A DNA stretch of 32,000 bases, taken from Candidatus Methanoperedens sp. Lineage in GTDB: Archaea; Halobacteriota; Methanosarcinia; Methanosarcinales; Methanoperedenaceae. The notes under the pieces are model-generated. The model ran no database searches. It worked only from the letters and a program-made list of their open reading frames with translations, and was not told where the DNA came from. The stretch's first letter is position 1. Each line of letters begins with the position of its first letter. Shown piece after piece: positions 140-31,610 of this stretch. The position numbers were made by a program, and so were the translations under genes. The stretch spans positions 180,001-212,000 of the forward strand of contig JBGQBI010000003.1 of the NCBI GenBank assembly GCA_041494705.1. The letters are read 5' to 3'.

Positions 140-216
140 AAACCTTTAAGAAAGGTTTATCAAACGACGGGTATGGTGCGCCATACCCGGACACGCCCTC
201 CCGAGGCGTGACTCGG
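140..216 (+). repeat. 77-nt three-hairpin repeat element, copy 1 (26 nt upstream of the dehydrogenase ATG)
   Basis: Matches the reverse complement of 18188-18264 at 73/77 positions (hand alignment). It has three perfect stems: aaaccttt/aaaggttt, gggtatgg/ccataccc, cacgcc/ggcgtg. Confidence 0.85.
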
Positions 217-18187: not shown

Positions 18188-18264
18188 CCGAGTCACGCCT
18201 CGGAAGGGCGTGTCCGGGTATGGCGTGCCATACCCGTCGTTTGATAAACCTTTCTCAAAGGTTT
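18188..18264 (-). repeat. 77-nt three-hairpin repeat element, copy 2 (3 nt upstream of the tRNA-Leu 5' end)
   Basis: Reverse complement of 140-216 with 4 substitutions, all in the predicted loops. It has the same orientation relative to the downstream gene as copy 1. Confidence 0.85.
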
Positions 18265-24112: not shown

Positions 24113-24184
24113 GCCCCGATGGGGTAGCGGATATCCTTTGAGATTGCGGATCTTAAGACCTGGGTTCAAGTCCCAGTCGGGGCG
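24113..24184 (+). tRNA. tRNA-Arg (anticodon GCG)
   Basis: Hand fold: acceptor GCCCCGA/TCGGGGC, anticodon stem TGAGA/TCTTA with loop TTGCGGA, T-arm CTGGG TTCAAGT CCCAG, discriminator G. Confidence 0.85.
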
Positions 24185-24439
24185 CTTAATAATCGTAAAA
24201 TCCCGTCGATATATTTAATACCTAATATATCTTAAAGCTATTGTTTTAAGGCTACTGACAATGGTTTTAATATCAATGAAAAGAGCATATTTATAAGAGC
24301 AAATCTTATAATATTCGATAATCAACGAAAAGCCTTTCGACAGTTCTTGGCTTTACGATTTCACTTTTATAAAAATCCTATGCTTTGCGAAGTTTGAAAA
24401 TTCGATATGCTGCATTGTTGTGGTGAAAAACTCACCACC

Positions 24440-24706
24440 CATTTATACAACCTACTAGTCCCGCTCACGCCAGCCTGTGGTCACCTGCGCCACGCTGCCG
24501 GCGCTTCGCTTCATCCGGCAGCGTGTGAAGCCTCCTAGAACGCTCCGCAAGGACGTCCTTAACAGTCGTTTGACGACGTTATCAAGATTGCCCCTTACTG
24601 CGGTAAGTGGCTGGGTACGAAGTGGTAGTGCGCCCTACAGCGCTAGAATATCCCTCCGGGACGTTCTTAGTATCGCGCTTGAAGGATGTGGGTGTTTTTT
24701 TACCCA
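24440..24706 (+). ncRNA. GC-rich structured block, candidate ncRNA (strand tentative)
   Basis: Strongly GC-rich inside AT-rich DNA. Perfect 11-bp stem cacgctgccgg/ccggcagcgtg (24490-24500/24514-24524). Long-range helix ctagaacgctcc (24534-24545) with ggacgttcttag (24658-24669). Hairpins at 24564-24576, 24593-24606 and 24629-24642. Terminal hairpin gtgggt-gTTTTTTT-acccac (24687-24706). TATA-like catttataca at 24438-24447. The overlapping 142-aa ORF is not protein-like. Confidence 0.4.
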
Positions 24707-24854
24707 CAACGTTAGAAAAACCGACAATTTTTATTCTTTTAATTTTTGTACATTGTATATTATTGTTGTATGTTTATCTATTTCAGTGATCCATTTAATA
24801 GTTTTTAATAAAAGTCCTTGCGCAATTATTATAGCAGTAATTAAACAGGGGCAA

Positions 24855-24977
24855 AATGCCCCTTTACAAACTGCTACAACAATCCTCTTTTATATTCTAA
24901 TCTAAACCCGAACTCCTCATATCAGAACGCGCGCCGCTTGTTAGCGTGCCCTCCGGGATACTTAACTTATAGCTTTT
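24855..24977 (+). ncRNA. Candidate small RNA gene A (paralog of B)
   Basis: The conserved box aattattatagcag (24824-24837) lies 31 nt upstream of the conserved 34-nt core aatgcccctttacaaactgctacaacaatcctct (24855-24888). A GC-rich 3' segment follows (..gccctccggga..), then a TTTT run at 24974-24977. Confidence 0.4.
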
Positions 24978-25119
24978 CTAAAATGCCTGGCAAAAATAGC
25001 TCTGTTCCTTTTGGTTTGTATAAATTTAAAGTTGACTTTATCCAAGGAGCCACTTTGTAAATACCTCTTTTACGAACCCCGATATCATCCTCGATGCATT
25101 CCAATAATCCTTTTTTCAT
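24967..25119 (-). CDS. Hypothetical 50-aa protein (hand-translated)
   Basis: MKKGLLECIEDDIGVRKRGIYKVAPWIKSTLNLYKPKGTELFLPGILEKL. The TATA box atataaaaacc (25147-25157, + coordinates) lies ~30 nt upstream of the ATG. The composition is not that of a typical shadow ORF. Confidence 0.4.
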   Translation of the reverse strand: MKKGLLECIEDDIGVRKRGIYKVAPWIKSTLNLYKPKGTELFLPGILEKL

Positions 25120-25146
25120 CAAGAAAACTCGTTATTGTACATTTGT

Positions 25147-25183
25147 ATATAAAAACCTGGTCAATTTATCCTATTTGGGATAA
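25147..25183 (-). promoter_or_regulatory. Promoter (TATA) plus upstream palindrome for the 50-aa ORF
   Basis: The 11-mer atataaaaacc is identical to the one upstream of the spike-like gene (30518-30528). The palindrome ttatcc-N6-ggataa (25166-25183) lies just upstream on the transcribed strand. Confidence 0.45.
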
Positions 25184-25389
25184 GATTTTGTTGTTTTTGG
25201 ATAATATAAGAGCTAGATAACTCCCTGTTCCAGCTACACCAGGATAGTCAATTCATCCTTCGCTTATCGATGTACATTTAGACAATTATTAAAGCACTAA
25301 ATTTACCAAGGGTTGCTAACCGAAAGATTACTTTCGCTTTGACACTTCCAGCACTAAAAATCATTATTAATCGTTATGTTATACGATAT

Positions 25390-25569
25390 CTATTTGTTTT
25401 CAAGTGTAGTTATGCGCCGTTCTTGGGTTTTAAGTTCAACCTTTATCTCTTTCACATCATCAATAACATTGTCCAGCTTTTGAAGTATTCTTCCAGCTTT
25501 AAGGCTAATACCTACAATTGTTACCACTACACCAAAAATAGGAATCAGGTCAAAAGAGGTTAAAGTCAA
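25390..25569 (-). CDS. Hypothetical 59-aa membrane/coiled-coil protein (hand-translated, TTG start)
   Basis: MTLTSFDLIPIFGVVVTIVGISLKAGRILQKLDNVIDDVKEIKVELKTQERRITTLENK. One TM helix plus an amphipathic helix. Its start overlaps the stop of the upstream 37-aa ORF (TTGA). Confidence 0.35.
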   Translation of the reverse strand: MTLTSFDLIPIFGVVVTIVGISLKAGRILQKLDNVIDDVKEIKVELKTQERRITTLENK

Positions 25570-25679
25570 GGTATCTTCCCAACAAGCTTACCAATTATCC
25601 AAAATAGAACAATCGCTATGCCTAACCATATCAAGATATCTGTATAATCGAAATTACGATGTTTTTCTATTGTGGCCAT
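25566..25679 (-). CDS. Hypothetical 37-aa single-TM peptide (hand-translated)
   Basis: MATIEKHRNFDYTDILIWLGIAIVLFWIIGKLVGKIP. A polar N-terminus is followed by one TM helix and a basic end. Confidence 0.35.
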   Translation of the reverse strand: MATIEKHRNFDYTDILIWLGIAIVLFWIIGKLVGKIP

Positions 25680-25765
25680 AATCTATACTTGAATTTCATG
25701 CTATTTAACTTTTAGTTTCTTTGGTTAATTTGGGAAATTATTATAACAGCTTTCTACCAGGAACA

Positions 25766-25878
25766 GAATGCCCCTTTACGAGCTGCTACAAAAATCCTCT
25801 CCAGTACATCAATTAGATCAGCTACAGCTTTTCAAACTATCAATTGCGCTGCCTTCAGGCAGCCCTTCGGGAAGTTTT
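25766..25878 (+). ncRNA. Candidate small RNA gene B (paralog of A)
   Basis: Box aattattataacag (25735-25748) sits at the same 31-nt distance from the core aatgcccctttacgagctgctacaaaaatcctct (25766-25799; 31/34 identical to A). The 3' hairpin gctgcc/ggcagc (25847-25862) is followed by ccc-ttc-ggg and TTTTT (25874-25878). Confidence 0.45.
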
Positions 25879-25912
25879 TACAAAAAAAGTATTATATTGG
25901 TATATGTTATAA

Positions 25913-26386
25913 ATGAACAATATGGTATTTGATGAAGAGAATTTTAAAAAAGGAGTGGCCTTCGAAAGAAAAATTATCGGACTTTTCAATCTTCAAACTT
26001 TTGCTATCCATGATTGGACCAGAGATATATGGCGTAAACACGGAGACATTAAAGTCGAATCAGACTCAAACCCGGATTTGGTGATACGCCATAAACCATC
26101 AAATGAAAAATTCGCTATAGAATGTAAATTTCGCTCAGAAATTTACCAAAATGCAATCAGATTTGATTACCGAAATAAAATAGATAATTATATAAAATAT
26201 TCTCAAGATTCTAATATCCCTGTGTTCGTAGTTATTGGAATAGGAAAAGATATTTTGAACATTGATAGAATGTTCTGCATACCATTAGAAGAGGCAACAT
26301 TAACAAATATCAAAGCAGATGTTTATGAAAGATTTGAAAGAAAACCTGATTTAAATTTTAGGTGGATGTATGACCAATTAACCTAG
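25913..26386 (+). CDS. PD-(D/E)xK nuclease-fold protein (restriction-endonuclease/Mrr-like catalytic core)
   Basis: 157 aa with FERKI ... NPDLVIRHKPSNEKFAIECKFRS, which gives the E ... PD ... E-x-K arrangement. The TATA-like gtattatatt lies ~20 nt before the ATG, which fits a leaderless mRNA. Confidence 0.6.
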   Translation: MNNMVFDEENFKKGVAFERKIIGLFNLQTFAIHDWTRDIWRKHGDIKVESDSNPDLVIRHKPSNEKFAIECKFRSEIYQNAIRFDYRNKIDNYIKYSQDSNIPVFVVIGIGKDILNIDRMFCIPLEEATLTNIKADVYERFERKPDLNFRWMYDQLT

Positions 26387-26483
26387 TGTTTGAACCGAAA
26401 AGAAAAAAATGTAGCCGATCCAAGTCAAGAAGATCTGAACAGTGGACCATAAAGCCAAGAGAAAATTATTTCTTACGAAATAA

Positions 26484-30517: not shown

Positions 30518-30587
30518 ATATAAAAACCCATAATTTTTGTGGATAATTTATCCCATCAAATGATGGGAAAAAGCTATTACTTTTCAA
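30518..30587 (-). promoter_or_regulatory. Promoter/operator module upstream of the spike-like gene (repeat copy 1)
   Basis: Contains the TATA atataaaaacc (30518-30528), tggataa (30540-30546) and the perfect palindrome tcccatca-aa-tgatggga (30551-30568). About 37/48 identity to 31534-31581. Confidence 0.5.
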
Positions 30588-31515
30588 CTGAAAAAGGGTT
30601 TTTCAAGGCATGAACAGCCCTCTTTTTCTTCCTTGGAACAGCCACATAACGCATCGTACTTGAAATGCTTTCATGCCTCATCAGTTCCTGGATCATTTTG
30701 ATATCCACGTCCTGATCAAAAAGATATGTAGCAAATCCGGCACGTAAACGATGAGTGCCCTTATTGAAATATTTTTTAACAACCCTCAGATATCCAAGGT
30801 AGCCCAGAGCCTTACCTTTACAAGCCCCCCTATGTGAATACCACAGCCTTTTACCATTTGGATAACGAGAAAAATACCACTCTTTAAGCATTTTTGTAGT
30901 TTCAGGATCCATGAAAACATAACCGTCTTTTGCCCCCTTGCCTGAAGGAATGTAAATTTCCCCGGTATCCCAATCTATATCCTCCTGGGGATTACAGGCA
31001 AGAGATTCAGAAGCACGCCAACCGGTAACGTACGCCGTACGGATTATAAAATAATTCCTTAATTCTATTTCATAATCGTTCCCCTTACGAAGCTCTTTGA
31101 ACATCTCGTCAAGGGTTTTCATCACAGTATCACAGGAAATGAAATCTATTTCCTGCTTAGGAACCCGAGGAGATTCAAGCTTCCGGGTTGGATCCAAAGT
31201 CAATGAATCATCTTTGCACAAAAACCCGAAAAATACCTTCAGATATGAAACGTAAATACTCATTGTACTGGGTTTTAAGCCCTTCAGGGCAAGAAAATTA
31301 ACATAATCCTCTATTATCTCACAGGTAACAACTCTCATGTCATGGAAAGCATCCTGATGATTTTTAGAAAGCCATTCAGCGAACATAAGGCAAAACCACT
31401 TTCTTGAACGAATACTCTTTTTTGAGAATACCCTTCTTAGCATTGAAGCCTCATATTTTTGAATAGCCTTTTCAAATGTTAAACGCATATTTTTACTCCG
31501 AAATCCAAACAGCAT
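30577..31515 (-). CDS. int: Tyrosine recombinase/integrase (XerC/D-like); start possibly at 31488
   Basis: Catalytic pattern: TGWRASE (Arg I), HRLRAGFATYL (H-x-x-R), LMRHESISSTMRYV (His ... Tyr), plus an N-terminal SAM-like core-binding region. A TATA-like ctttatat overlaps the first ATG, which favours Met10. Confidence 0.88.
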   Translation of the reverse strand: MLFGFRSKNMRLTFEKAIQKYEASMLRRVFSKKSIRSRKWFCLMFAEWLSKNHQDAFHDMRVVTCEIIEDYVNFLALKGLKPSTMSIYVSYLKVFFGFLCKDDSLTLDPTRKLESPRVPKQEIDFISCDTVMKTLDEMFKELRKGNDYEIELRNYFIIRTAYVTGWRASESLACNPQEDIDWDTGEIYIPSGKGAKDGYVFMDPETTKMLKEWYFSRYPNGKRLWYSHRGACKGKALGYLGYLRVVKKYFNKGTHRLRAGFATYLFDQDVDIKMIQELMRHESISSTMRYVAVPRKKKRAVHALKNPFSVEK

Positions 31516-31581
31516 ATAAAGCCCAGTGTTTTCTGGATAGATTTTCCCATCATTTAATGGGAAAAAGCAGTTACATTTAAT
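31513..31581 (-). promoter_or_regulatory. Promoter/operator module upstream of the integrase gene (repeat copy 2)
   Basis: Contains tggatag (31534-31540), the palindrome ttcccat-N6-atgggaa (31544-31563) and the shared aaaaagc..ttac tail. The TATA-like element lies at 31513-31520. Confidence 0.5.
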
Positions 31582-31610
31582 ACCAAAAATACCGTTACAT
31601 ACAAAATATT

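What the first reader, a model, noticed from the sequence alone, without database searches (positions are those of the whole stretch)
24824..25878. Two paralogous candidate sRNA genes with conserved promoter box, 34-nt core and divergent GC-rich 3' hairpins
**Seen.**
- The box aattattata(g/a)cag lies exactly 31 nt upstream of a 34-nt core that is 31/34 identical between the two loci (24855-24888 and 25766-25799).
- Both loci continue for ~80 nt into alignable GC-rich segments (tatca..gcgc.gcc...ccct(c/t)cggga). Each ends at a T-run (TTTT 24974-24977; TTTTT 25874-25878).
- The hairpin sequences differ between copies (cgct/agcg versus gctgcc/ggcagc) while the position is kept.

**Inference.**
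- The box has the spacing expected for an archaeal TATA element, so these look like ~110-120 nt independently transcribed RNAs.
- Copy A ends convergently on the 3' end of the 50-aa ORF.
- Copy B sits just upstream of the orphan nuclease gene.
- I know of no RNA family with this core.
Basis: partly seen in the sequence, partly recalled or inferred. Interest (0 to 1): 0.66.

Follow-up and report, generated by a model that had tools for sequence, protein, structure and literature searches.

The report
Duplicated control module in archaeal provirus

Summary
The repeat is real. A 71-nt block is 79% identical between the copies and the 34-nt core is 31/34. The homologous module is larger: 24780-24958 versus 25693-25872, 64% identity.

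It lies inside a roughly 7.4-kb integrated element, between tRNA-Arg and a tyrosine integrase.

The sRNA reading is partly supported.
- **For it:** the box matches the element's other promoters, one of which is conserved across genomes. The conserved block starts 22 nt after the TATA box, as in the neighbouring leaderless genes. U-tracts follow 110-120 nt downstream, and no reading frame is conserved.
  - Box and core are complementary arms of a roughly 60-bp imperfect palindrome that overlaps the predicted start site.
  - The plus-strand RNA shows no significant fold.
  - The module also carries a conserved back-to-back minus-strand promoter.
  - The "orphan" nuclease has 40 homologues and is a separate mobile cassette.

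No relative of the module turned up in Rfam, GTDB representative genomes, JGI metagenomes, IMG/VR, phages or plasmids. Covariation therefore rests on two sequences.

Best reading, about 45%: a duplicated divergent promoter with a palindromic operator, whose plus-strand output is a short RNA. Interest is modest.

The parts
24780..24958 (+). Module A, the full duplicated unit (179 nt)
   Evidence: Local and global alignment with module B: 124 of 193 columns identical; score 93 versus shuffles -37 +/- 12.
25693..25872 (+). Module B, the full duplicated unit (180 nt)
24818..24833 (+). Plus-strand BRE/TATA-like element of A (GCGCAA + TTATTATA)
   Evidence: 17 of 20 positions conserved with B. There are 22 nt from the TATA 3' edge to the ATG at 24856. 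It resembles the conserved p157 promoter AAGTATTATA.
25730..25745 (+). Plus-strand BRE/TATA-like element of B (GGGAAA + TTATTATA)
24825..24883 (.). Imperfect palindrome of A. Outer arms ATTATTATAGCAGT / ACTGCTACAACAAT; inner arms AGGGGCA-AAA-TGCCCCT.
   Evidence: As RNA it folds at -30.5 kcal/mol (z -5.5) on the minus strand and -19.9 (z -3.9) on the plus strand.
25737..25795 (.). Imperfect palindrome of B
   Evidence: Minus strand -25.9 kcal/mol (z -3.6); plus strand -9.9 (z -0.05). Across the two copies, 48 of 50 pair cells are paired on the minus strand, with 1 compensatory pair and 4 GC/GU changes.
24852..24888 (+). Conserved core of A (33/37 identical); predicted 5' end of the plus-strand transcript; starts at the ATG at 24856
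25764..25800 (+). Conserved core of B; ATG at 25768
24929..24958 (+). 3' segment of A: a small GC hairpin followed by CCCTCCGGGA
   Evidence: The fold is weak (z +0.5).
25848..25872 (+). 3' segment of B: GCUGCC-UUCA-GGCAGC hairpin followed by CCCTTCGGGA
   Evidence: z -1.95.
24974..24977 (+). U4 tract, candidate 3' end of the A transcript. It overlaps the 3' end of the convergent 50-aa gene (24967-25119, minus strand).
   Evidence: U4 tracts are archaeal termination signals (PMC8716108).
25875..25879 (+). U5 tract, candidate 3' end of the B transcript
   Evidence: It may be part of the p157 cassette's upstream edge.
24791..24798 (-). Minus-strand TATA-like TTAAATGG in module A
   Evidence: TTAAAT[AG]G occurs only twice in the window, at homologous places in A and B.
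25701..25708 (-). Minus-strand TATA-like TTAAATAG in module B, 22 nt upstream of the ATG of the 37-aa gene (25679)
25390..25679 (-). 37-aa and 59-aa membrane-protein genes, transcribed divergently from module B
   Evidence: called genes. The transmembrane segments are judged from the sequence.
24397..24710 (.). GC-rich structured region C. It holds the third copy of CCCTCCGGGA and lies downstream of module A's minus-strand promoter.
   Evidence: Minus strand z -4.3; plus strand z -3.1. No Rfam hit. Apart from the shared 10-mer, its similarity to A and B is not significant.
25885..26401 (+). p157 (PD-(D/E)XK-like) gene cassette with its own promoter. It adjoins the module but is not part of it.
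   Evidence: 86-88% nucleotide identity to L046-L049 with sharp ends; 40 protein homologues.
30577..31515 (-). Tyrosine integrase of the integrated element
   Evidence: Pfam PF00589, E = 8e-20; PHROG integrase.
24113..24185 (+). tRNA-Arg(GCG) at the left flank of the element

Best explanation
A and B are two copies of a roughly 180-bp control module in a small integrated archaeal virus-like element.

Each module holds two back-to-back promoters.
- **Minus-strand promoter** (TTAAATRG): in B it drives the leaderless 37-aa/59-aa membrane-protein operon. In A it points towards the GC-rich region C.
- **Plus-strand promoter** (TTATTATA): it drives a short transcript of 110-125 nt. That transcript begins at the conserved core (AUGCCCCUUUAC...), has a divergent middle, carries a small GC hairpin plus CCCUYCGGGA near its end, and stops at a U4/U5 tract.

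A roughly 60-bp imperfect palindrome spans the plus-strand TATA box and positions +1 to +27. I read it as the binding site (operator) of an element-encoded regulator that gates this promoter. The short RNA is probably non-coding and would act through its unstructured conserved 5' end. For copy A it could also act as a cis-antisense RNA to the 3' end of the convergent 50-aa gene.

**Shown:** the duplication, the palindrome, the promoter-like geometry, the lack of a conserved reading frame, the independence from p157, and the integrated-element context.

**Inferred:** that the promoters fire, where the transcripts end, that a protein binds the palindrome, and what the RNA does.
For: **Context**
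- The element carries an integrase and shows a drop in GC content.
- By tblastn it shares integrase, p750, p134 and p157 homologues with the 16-kb contig L043.

**Promoter**
- The box is identical in both copies apart from one purine.
- It resembles AAGTATTATA, which is invariant upstream of p157 in three independent genomes.
- The distance from the TATA 3' edge to the ATG is 22 nt in A, B and p37, 24 nt in p157 and 26 nt in p50. TATA boxes lie 19-22 nt from mapped start sites in Methanolobus (PMC5378194).

**Conservation profile**

| Segment | Identical positions |
|---|---|
| BRE/TATA | 17/20 |
| Spacer | 6/14 |
| Core | 33/37 |
| Middle | 16/35 |
| 3' segment | 26/43 |

- The right half of the palindrome, which would be transcribed, differs at 3 of 29 positions; the left half differs at 9 of 29 (one search list). 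That suggests an extra constraint on the transcribed side.

**Transcript end and boundaries**
- U4 and U5 tracts follow; these are archaeal terminators that need no hairpin (PMC8716108).
- The small hairpin keeps its position while changing sequence.
- B is bounded by an independent p157 cassette.

**Coding**
- Copy A stops after 14 codons and copy B after 54.
- The shared 10-mer is 93 versus 95 nt from the ATG, so it lies in different frames (read from the sequence).

**Divergent promoter**
- TTAAAT[AG]G occurs only at the homologous sites of A and B.

**Positional analogue**
- The relatives L043 and L044 carry a conserved structured RNA of about 95 nt, with 5 compensatory pairs, in the same place and orientation and with the same TATA geometry.
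Against: - There is no transcript evidence of any kind.
- The plus-strand RNAs fold no better than shuffled sequence, z = 0.02 and -0.64. Their consensus structure is only -6.1 kcal/mol.
- No homologue was found in Rfam, GTDB representatives, JGI metagenomes, IMG/VR, or phages and plasmids. Nothing supports function beyond two paralogues.
- No trans target in the window beats shuffled cores.
- The palindrome folds better as minus-strand RNA, which a DNA-operator reading does not predict.
- No DNA-binding regulator could be identified with confidence. p74 and p50 gave models with pLDDT about 53, and the C-terminus of p80 matches MazE/AbrB only at E = 0.022.
- B's U5 tract may belong to the p157 cassette.
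Confidence: 0.45

Rival explanations
1. DNA-level regulatory repeats only. The modules are duplicated divergent promoter/operator regions, comparable to the paralogous OL and OR control regions of phage lambda. Any short plus-strand transcript would be an incidental by-product with no function of its own.
For: - The palindrome overlaps the TATA box and the predicted start site in both copies.
- A back-to-back minus-strand promoter is conserved.
- The plus-strand RNA is unstructured.
- No target was found.
- The 3' hairpins are weak.
Against: - The core is conserved beyond the palindrome's right arm, and more strongly than the left arm.
- Homology continues 90 nt past the palindrome to CCCTYCGGGA, with a position-conserved hairpin. 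An operator alone would not need that.
Confidence: 0.2
2. A structured minus-strand RNA element. The 60-70-nt hairpin would form in transcripts of the element's main coding strand. For A that would be the 3' UTR of the 50-aa gene. It would serve as a stabilising, processing or termination structure, or as an ssDNA hairpin.
For: - The minus-strand folds give z = -5.5 and -3.6, against -3.9 and -0.05 on the plus strand.
- 48 of 50 pair cells are paired on the minus strand, with G-C to G-U changes and one compensatory pair.
- Only 1.35% of random 19-substitution derivatives of A fold as well as B does on the minus strand.
- Region C also folds better on the minus strand.
- Most element genes lie on this strand.
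Against: - When the substitutions are kept at their observed positions, the test gives only 10.5%.
- The G-U bias is expected anyway if the left arm must stay A/T-only as a TATA box. The left arm's stem positions also hold 6 G against 2 C (my count from the sequence).
- In B nothing upstream on the minus strand is known to transcribe through the hairpin. The p80 transcript meets a T8 run at 26403-26410, and p37 has its own promoter downstream of the hairpin.
- No U-tract follows hairpin B on the minus strand.
Confidence: 0.15
3. Leaderless micro-ORF mRNAs. The conserved core would encode the N-terminus MPLY(K/E)LLQ(Q/K)SS of a very small protein, translated from a 5'-terminal AUG.
For: - An ATG sits exactly where the element's genuine leaderless genes start relative to their TATA boxes.
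- About 16% of Methanolobus mRNAs are leaderless.
Against: - The ORF lengths are 14 versus 54 codons. The downstream homologous segments are in different frames (from the sequence).
- The three core differences fall at codon positions 1, 3 and 1 and change two residues (K to E, Q to K). There is no sign of purifying selection on the peptide.
- The 54-aa ORF has no Pfam hit. It also runs into the separately acquired p157 cassette.
Confidence: 0.1
4. Recombination, replication or mobile-element sites. Candidates are integrase or att-type sites, integron attC-like hairpins, IS200/IS605-type subterminal hairpins, or an origin.
For: - Two directly repeated imperfect palindromes lie 912 bp apart and flank three small genes.
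- They sit beside a demonstrably mobile gene cassette, inside an element that encodes a tyrosine recombinase.
Against: - The repeats are 64-79% identical over 180 nt, not a short exact crossover core.
- Neither strand contains an attC R'/R'' consensus (GTTRRRY / RYYYAAC), by inspection of the sequence.
- No TnpA, TnpB or Rep domain was found in the element's ORFs.
- The integrase gene is 5 kb away.
- The candidate att core is a different sequence, ATTTAATACC at 24213 and 31575.
Confidence: 0.05

Closest known systems
Paralogous adjacent sRNA pairs with shared ends and a divergent centre (for example OmrA/OmrB of enterobacteria; from general knowledge)
   Same: - Two nearby paralogous short units.
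- Near-identical 5' segment (31/34).
- Divergent middle.
- Related 3' end followed by a U-tract.
- Each has its own promoter.
   Different: - The host is an archaeon and the setting is a provirus.
- There is no sequence relationship to those sRNAs.
- Transcripts and targets are unverified.
- The 5' segment is also one arm of a promoter-spanning palindrome.
Duplicated operator/promoter control regions of temperate phages (lambda OL/PL and OR/PR-PRM; from general knowledge)
   Same: - Paralogous control regions about 1 kb apart in a prophage.
- Back-to-back divergent promoters.
- Imperfect palindromes overlapping a promoter.
   Different: - The promoters are archaeal BRE/TATA elements.
- The copies are in direct rather than inverted orientation.
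- There is one long nested palindrome instead of three 17-bp operators.
- No repressor has been identified.
The roughly 95-nt structured RNA 'X' of the related elements L043 and L044
   Same: - Same place: the divergent control region, upstream of and co-oriented with the p157-like or lipoprotein gene.
- Same TATA-to-AUG geometry.
- Similar length.
   Different: - X has a strong fold with a 9-bp closing stem and 5 compensatory pairs.
- A and B have no such fold on the plus strand.
- The covariance model of X does not match the window.
Archaeal sRNAs mapped by dRNA-seq in Methanosarcinales (intergenic non-coding start sites in Methanolobus, PMC5378194)
   Same: An intergenic unit of about 100 nt with a BRE/TATA promoter and a U-tract end.
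   Different: There is no expression data here, no homology to any curated family, and the unit is carried on a mobile element.

Membership tests
Any curated RNA family (Rfam 15) | A covariance-model match at or near the gathering score | tested here: not met
   Only the two tRNAs pass. The permissive scan of 24150-26000 gives only noise, with E >= 0.13 and scores far below the thresholds.
Archaeal BRE/TATA promoter | An A/T-rich 8-bp TATA box whose 3' edge lies about 19-22 nt from a purine start site, with a purine/A-rich BRE just upstream | tested here: met
   - TTATTATA is preceded by GCGCAA or GGGAAA.
- Purines lie 19-22 nt downstream in both copies.
- Geometry as in PMC5378194.
- This is a sequence-level test only.
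Archaeal BRE/TATA promoter | Transcription actually initiates there | not testable with these tools
   No transcriptome data are available.
Archaeal intrinsic terminator | A U4 or longer tract at the transcript's 3' end; no hairpin is required | tested here: met
   U4 at 24974-24977 and U5 at 25875-25879. The criterion is from PMC8716108. A single U4 is a weak signal.
Trans-acting base-pairing sRNA | A discrete stable transcript | not testable with these tools
   No RNA data are available.
Trans-acting base-pairing sRNA | A conserved, accessible seed with complementary targets | tested here: inconclusive
   The core is conserved and predicted to be unpaired. However, no target in the 32-kb window scores better than targets of shuffled cores, and the rest of the genome could not be searched.
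Structured RNA supported by covariation | Compensatory changes across several independent homologues | tested here: inconclusive
   Only two paralogues exist. On the minus-strand hairpin, 1 pair is compensatory and 4 are GC/GU changes. The shuffle control is uninformative with n = 2, and the simulation gives p = 0.013 or 0.105 depending on the null model.
CRISPR solitary repeat unit / RNA anti-CRISPR | The core matches a CRISPR repeat of the host or of a known array | not testable with these tools
Neither strand of the core ends in the ATTGAAA(C/G) that I recall for archaeal type I/III repeats; that recollection is a lead, not a test.
Integron attC site | R''/R' core sites (RYYYAAC ... GTTRRRY) at the base of an imperfect hairpin, in an array next to intI | tested here: not met
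   Neither consensus is present on either strand of 24818-24892 or 25730-25804 (inspection). The integrase lies 5 kb away and there is no cassette array.
IS200/IS605-type element ends | Subterminal hairpins together with a TnpA (Y1) and/or TnpB gene | tested here: not met
   None of the element ORFs scanned (all but the 37-aa one) matches a transposase family in Pfam, and those scanned against PHROGs match none either.
RNA 'X' of the related elements L043 and L044 | A match to the covariance model R2 (23 pairs) | tested here: not met
   The best hit in the window is E = 0.23 at an unrelated place. A and B are not hit in the plus orientation.

The most novel reading that the evidence does not exclude
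A and B found a new family of provirus-encoded, trans-acting archaeal sRNAs. Each would be a 5'-seed RNA made from a promoter gated by a palindromic operator. The element would use them to control its own lysis/lysogeny genes or host genes in a Methanoperedens/Methanosarcina-type archaeon.
Probability: 0.2. Interest if true: 0.55.

Novelty: new member of a known kind. Interest (0 to 1): 0.3.

Why it matters
Almost nothing is known about how small integrated viruses or plasmids of methanogenic and methanotrophic archaea are regulated. If the two units are expressed, they would give a compact, testable control region: divergent promoters, a palindromic operator and a short RNA. They would also add an archaeal provirus example to the small set of archaeal regulatory RNAs. 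As it stands, this is an orphan pair in one uncultivated strain with no expression data. Its present value is as an annotation and a target for mapping metatranscriptomes, not as a discovery.

Tried and rejected
**Searches for relatives, all negative**
- Exact-pattern scans for the core found only chance matches that do not extend:
  - GTDB representative genomes: 28 hits.
  - JGI metagenomes: 3 hits.
  - IMG/VR: 0 hits, and 7 chance hits with a second pattern.
- blastn of 24186-25912 against phage and plasmid collections found nothing.
- The covariance model of the hairpin (R1) hits only A and B, across the window and all fetched loci.
- Related elements were reached through integrase homologues. 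Only the integrase gene is similar at the DNA level; no A, B or C homologue appears in the parts fetched. The far ends of those elements could not be reached.
- The 750-aa protein had no hit in the protein database search.
- The integrase and p750 have no relatives in IMG/VR.

**Other checks that led nowhere**
- **Empty integration site:** every contig carrying the flanking MGMT gene or the integrase also carries the element, at 100% identity.
- **Link from region C to A and B:** not significant apart from the shared 10-mer.
- **Target search for the core in the window:** no better than with shuffled cores.
- **Regulator identification:** AlphaFold models of p74 and p50 reached only pLDDT 53 and were not taken to fold search. 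Pfam and PADLOC were uninformative.
- **B as the leader of the nuclease gene:** rejected.
- **attC, IS605 ends, att sites, ORB-like origin boxes:** considered from memory. The first two were rejected on their missing defining features, att sites on the evidence given under the recombination rival, and ORB-like boxes were left untested.

**A correction to my own reasoning**
I first read the G-U asymmetry as strong evidence for a minus-strand RNA. I downgraded it after noting that the TATA-box constraint and the G-rich left arm explain most of it.
Full report

Yes. The box AATTATTATA(G/A)CAG is at 24824-24837 and 25736-25749. The 34-nt core is 31/34 identical and starts 31 nt after the box start in both copies.

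The ungapped 71-nt repeat, 24818-24888 versus 25730-25800, is 79% identical. The core pattern occurs twice in the window against 0.03 expected.

Of 193 alignment columns, 124 are identical. The alignment scores 93, against -37 +/- 12 for shuffles.

Identity by segment:

| Segment | Identical positions |
|---|---|
| Upstream part | 26/44 |
| BRE/TATA | 17/20 |
| Spacer | 6/14 |
| Core | 33/37 |
| Middle | 16/35 |
| 3' segment | 26/43 |

CCCTYCGGGA occurs exactly three times in 32 kb, all on the plus strand, at 24652, 24949 and 25863.

**2. Context**

The window is an archaeal chromosome. It carries ribosomal protein genes S13, S4 and S11, RpoD, and downstream Cbf5 and a thermosome gene. All public contigs that carry this locus are 100% identical to the window.

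A low-GC segment of about 7.4 kb lies between tRNA-Arg(GCG), 24113-24185, and a tyrosine integrase, 30577-31515 on the minus strand (Pfam PF00589, E = 8e-20). Its GC content is 0.32-0.39 against about 0.45 for the flanks. Its ORFs are mostly orphans.

By tblastn the integrase, the 750-aa protein, the 134-aa protein and the 157-aa protein all have homologues on one 16-kb contig, L043. I therefore read the segment as an integrated virus- or plasmid-like element, with A and B in its control end.

The att sites are not resolved. The only candidate is a weak one, ATTTAATACC at 24213 and 31575.

**3. The nuclease gene is neither an orphan nor linked to B**

The 157-aa protein has 40 homologues, some annotated in Ca. 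Methanoperedens and Methanosarcina records. Window 25885-26401 is 86-88% identical at the nucleotide level to loci in unrelated genomic neighbourhoods (L046-L049).

That homology begins exactly at the gene's own TATA box (AAGTATTATAT), just after B's U-tract. It ends 15 nt after the stop codon. The homologues are 154 aa long, which places the start at the ATG at 25922.

B is therefore a separate unit, not a leader of this gene.

**4. Evidence for plus-strand short transcription units**

The element's genes share one geometry: a TATA box, then 22-26 nt, then the ATG. The distance is 22 nt for p37, 24 nt for p157 and 26 nt for p50. A and B have the same 22 nt between TTATTATA and a conserved ATG.

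In Methanolobus, BRE/TATA elements lie 19-22 nt from mapped start sites and about 16% of mRNAs are leaderless (PMC5378194). Conservation is high in the TATA box, low in the spacer and highest from the predicted start onward.

U4 and U5 tracts follow 110-120 nt downstream. Archaeal termination uses U-tracts and needs no hairpin (PMC8716108).

No reading frame is conserved. Copy A stops after 14 codons and copy B after 54. The shared 10-mer lies 93 and 95 nt from the ATG, so it is in different frames. The three core differences change two residues.

**5.

The box and the 3' half of the core are complementary. In A the arms are ATTATTATAGCAGT and ACTGCTACAACAAT, with an inner pair AGGGGCA-AAA-TGCCCCT.

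Folded as RNA, the 75-nt region gives:

| Copy | Minus strand | Plus strand |
|---|---|---|
| A | -30.5 kcal/mol (z -5.5) | -19.9 kcal/mol (z -3.9) |
| B | -25.9 kcal/mol (z -3.6) | -9.9 kcal/mol (z -0.05) |

On the minus strand 48 of 50 pair cells are paired. One pair is compensatory (U-A to C-G), four change between G-C or U-A and G-U, and two are broken.

Only 1.35% of derivatives of A carrying 19 random substitutions fold as well as B does on the minus strand. When the substitutions are kept at their observed positions the figure rises to 10.5%.

The G-U bias is also expected for two other reasons. The left arm must stay A/T-only if it is a TATA box, and its stem positions hold six G against two C. 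So the palindrome is real and kept in both copies, but the strand preference is only suggestive.

The right half of the palindrome, which would be transcribed, differs at 3 of 29 positions; the left half differs at 9 of 29. This points to an additional constraint on the transcribed side.

**6. The plus-strand RNAs are poorly structured**

Their z-scores are 0.02 and -0.64. The consensus structure is -6.1 kcal/mol, made up of one 4-bp hairpin (2 of its pairs compensatory) and two C-G pairs. The 3' segments alone give z = +0.5 and -1.95.

**7. A second, divergent promoter**

TTAAAT[AG]G occurs only twice in the window, on the minus strand, at homologous positions in A and B. In B it lies 22 nt upstream of the ATG of the 37-aa/59-aa membrane-protein operon. 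In A it points towards region C.

C spans 24397-24710 and is GC-rich. It gives z = -4.3 on the minus strand and -3.1 on the plus strand. It has no Rfam or Pfam match.

Each module is therefore a back-to-back promoter region.

**8. Relatives**

None was found for A, B or C. The collections searched and the call numbers are listed under "tried and rejected".

The related elements L043 and L044 do carry a conserved structured RNA of about 95 nt, with 23 pairs of which 5 are compensatory. It sits at the equivalent place, in the same orientation and with the same TATA geometry. Its covariance model does not match the window. It is a positional analogue only.

**9. Targets and regulators**

No site in the window pairs with the core better than sites do with shuffled cores. 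No DNA-binding protein could be established:
- p74 looks like a ribbon-helix-helix protein by eye, but its model has pLDDT 53.
- The p50 model also has pLDDT 53.
- The C-terminus of p80 matches MazE/AbrB only at E = 0.022.

**10. Verdict**

The best-supported reading, about 0.45, is a duplicated divergent promoter with a palindromic operator whose plus-strand output is a short RNA. That RNA is probably non-coding and has a conserved, unstructured 5' end.

Rival readings:

| Reading | Confidence |
|---|---|
| DNA-level operators only | 0.20 |
| Minus-strand RNA or ssDNA hairpin | 0.15 |
| Leaderless micro-ORF | 0.10 |
| Recombination or origin sites | 0.05 |

The feature is a new, orphan example of a known kind of thing. 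Its interest is modest until transcripts are mapped.

Noticed in passing
L043 9876-9974 (-) and L044 9363-9455 (-): A conserved structured RNA of about 95 nt ('X') in the control region of two 16-kb relatives of the element. It has a 9-bp closing stem and 23 predicted pairs, 5 of them compensatory. It starts with AUGGG 18-19 nt after a TATA box. Rfam has no match.
   Followed up: partly
window 25885-26401: The PD-(D/E)XK-like 154-aa gene, with its own leaderless promoter, is a discrete cassette. It is 86-88% identical at the nucleotide level to copies in unrelated neighbourhoods rich in toxin-antitoxin genes (L046, L048), and it has 40 protein homologues. It looks like a small mobile gene cassette.
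   Followed up: partly
window 24397-24710: A GC-rich (about 58%) structured stretch of about 300 nt, bounded by GTGGTGA...TCACCAC and GTGGGTG...ACCCAC hairpins with A/T-run loops. It folds better on the minus strand (-122 kcal/mol, z -4.3). It has no Rfam or Pfam match and contains the third copy of CCCTCCGGGA. It is possibly an unknown ncRNA of the element or the host.
   Followed up: partly
window 140-216 (+) and 18188-18264 (-): A 77-nt repeat, 95% identical: AAACCTTTAAGAAAGGTTTATCAAAC followed by two GC hairpins. One copy lies directly upstream of tRNA-Leu(GAG). Partial copies lie upstream of the EMC3-like gene (L029 16735-16770) and of secD in L048. It is probably a shared strong host promoter and 5' leader.
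   Followed up: partly
window 25284-25297 (+): A third copy of the box, with two mismatches (AATTATTAAAGCAC). It would drive a plus-strand RNA of about 85 nt, antisense to and convergent on the 3' end of the 59-aa gene, ending at UUUGUUUUC near 25394-25402.
   Followed up: no
window 31543-31584 and 24213-24229: The palindrome TTTTCCCATCATTTAATGGGAAAA lies upstream of the integrase gene. Beside it is ATTTAATACCWAAWATA, which recurs 28 nt after tRNA-Arg. These are candidate attR and attL cores, but the match is short and the sequence AT-rich.
   Followed up: no
window 26403-26410: An A8 run on the plus strand, which is T8 on the minus strand, sits exactly at the 3' junction of the p157 cassette. 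It is a likely terminator for the minus-strand p80 transcript.
   Followed up: no
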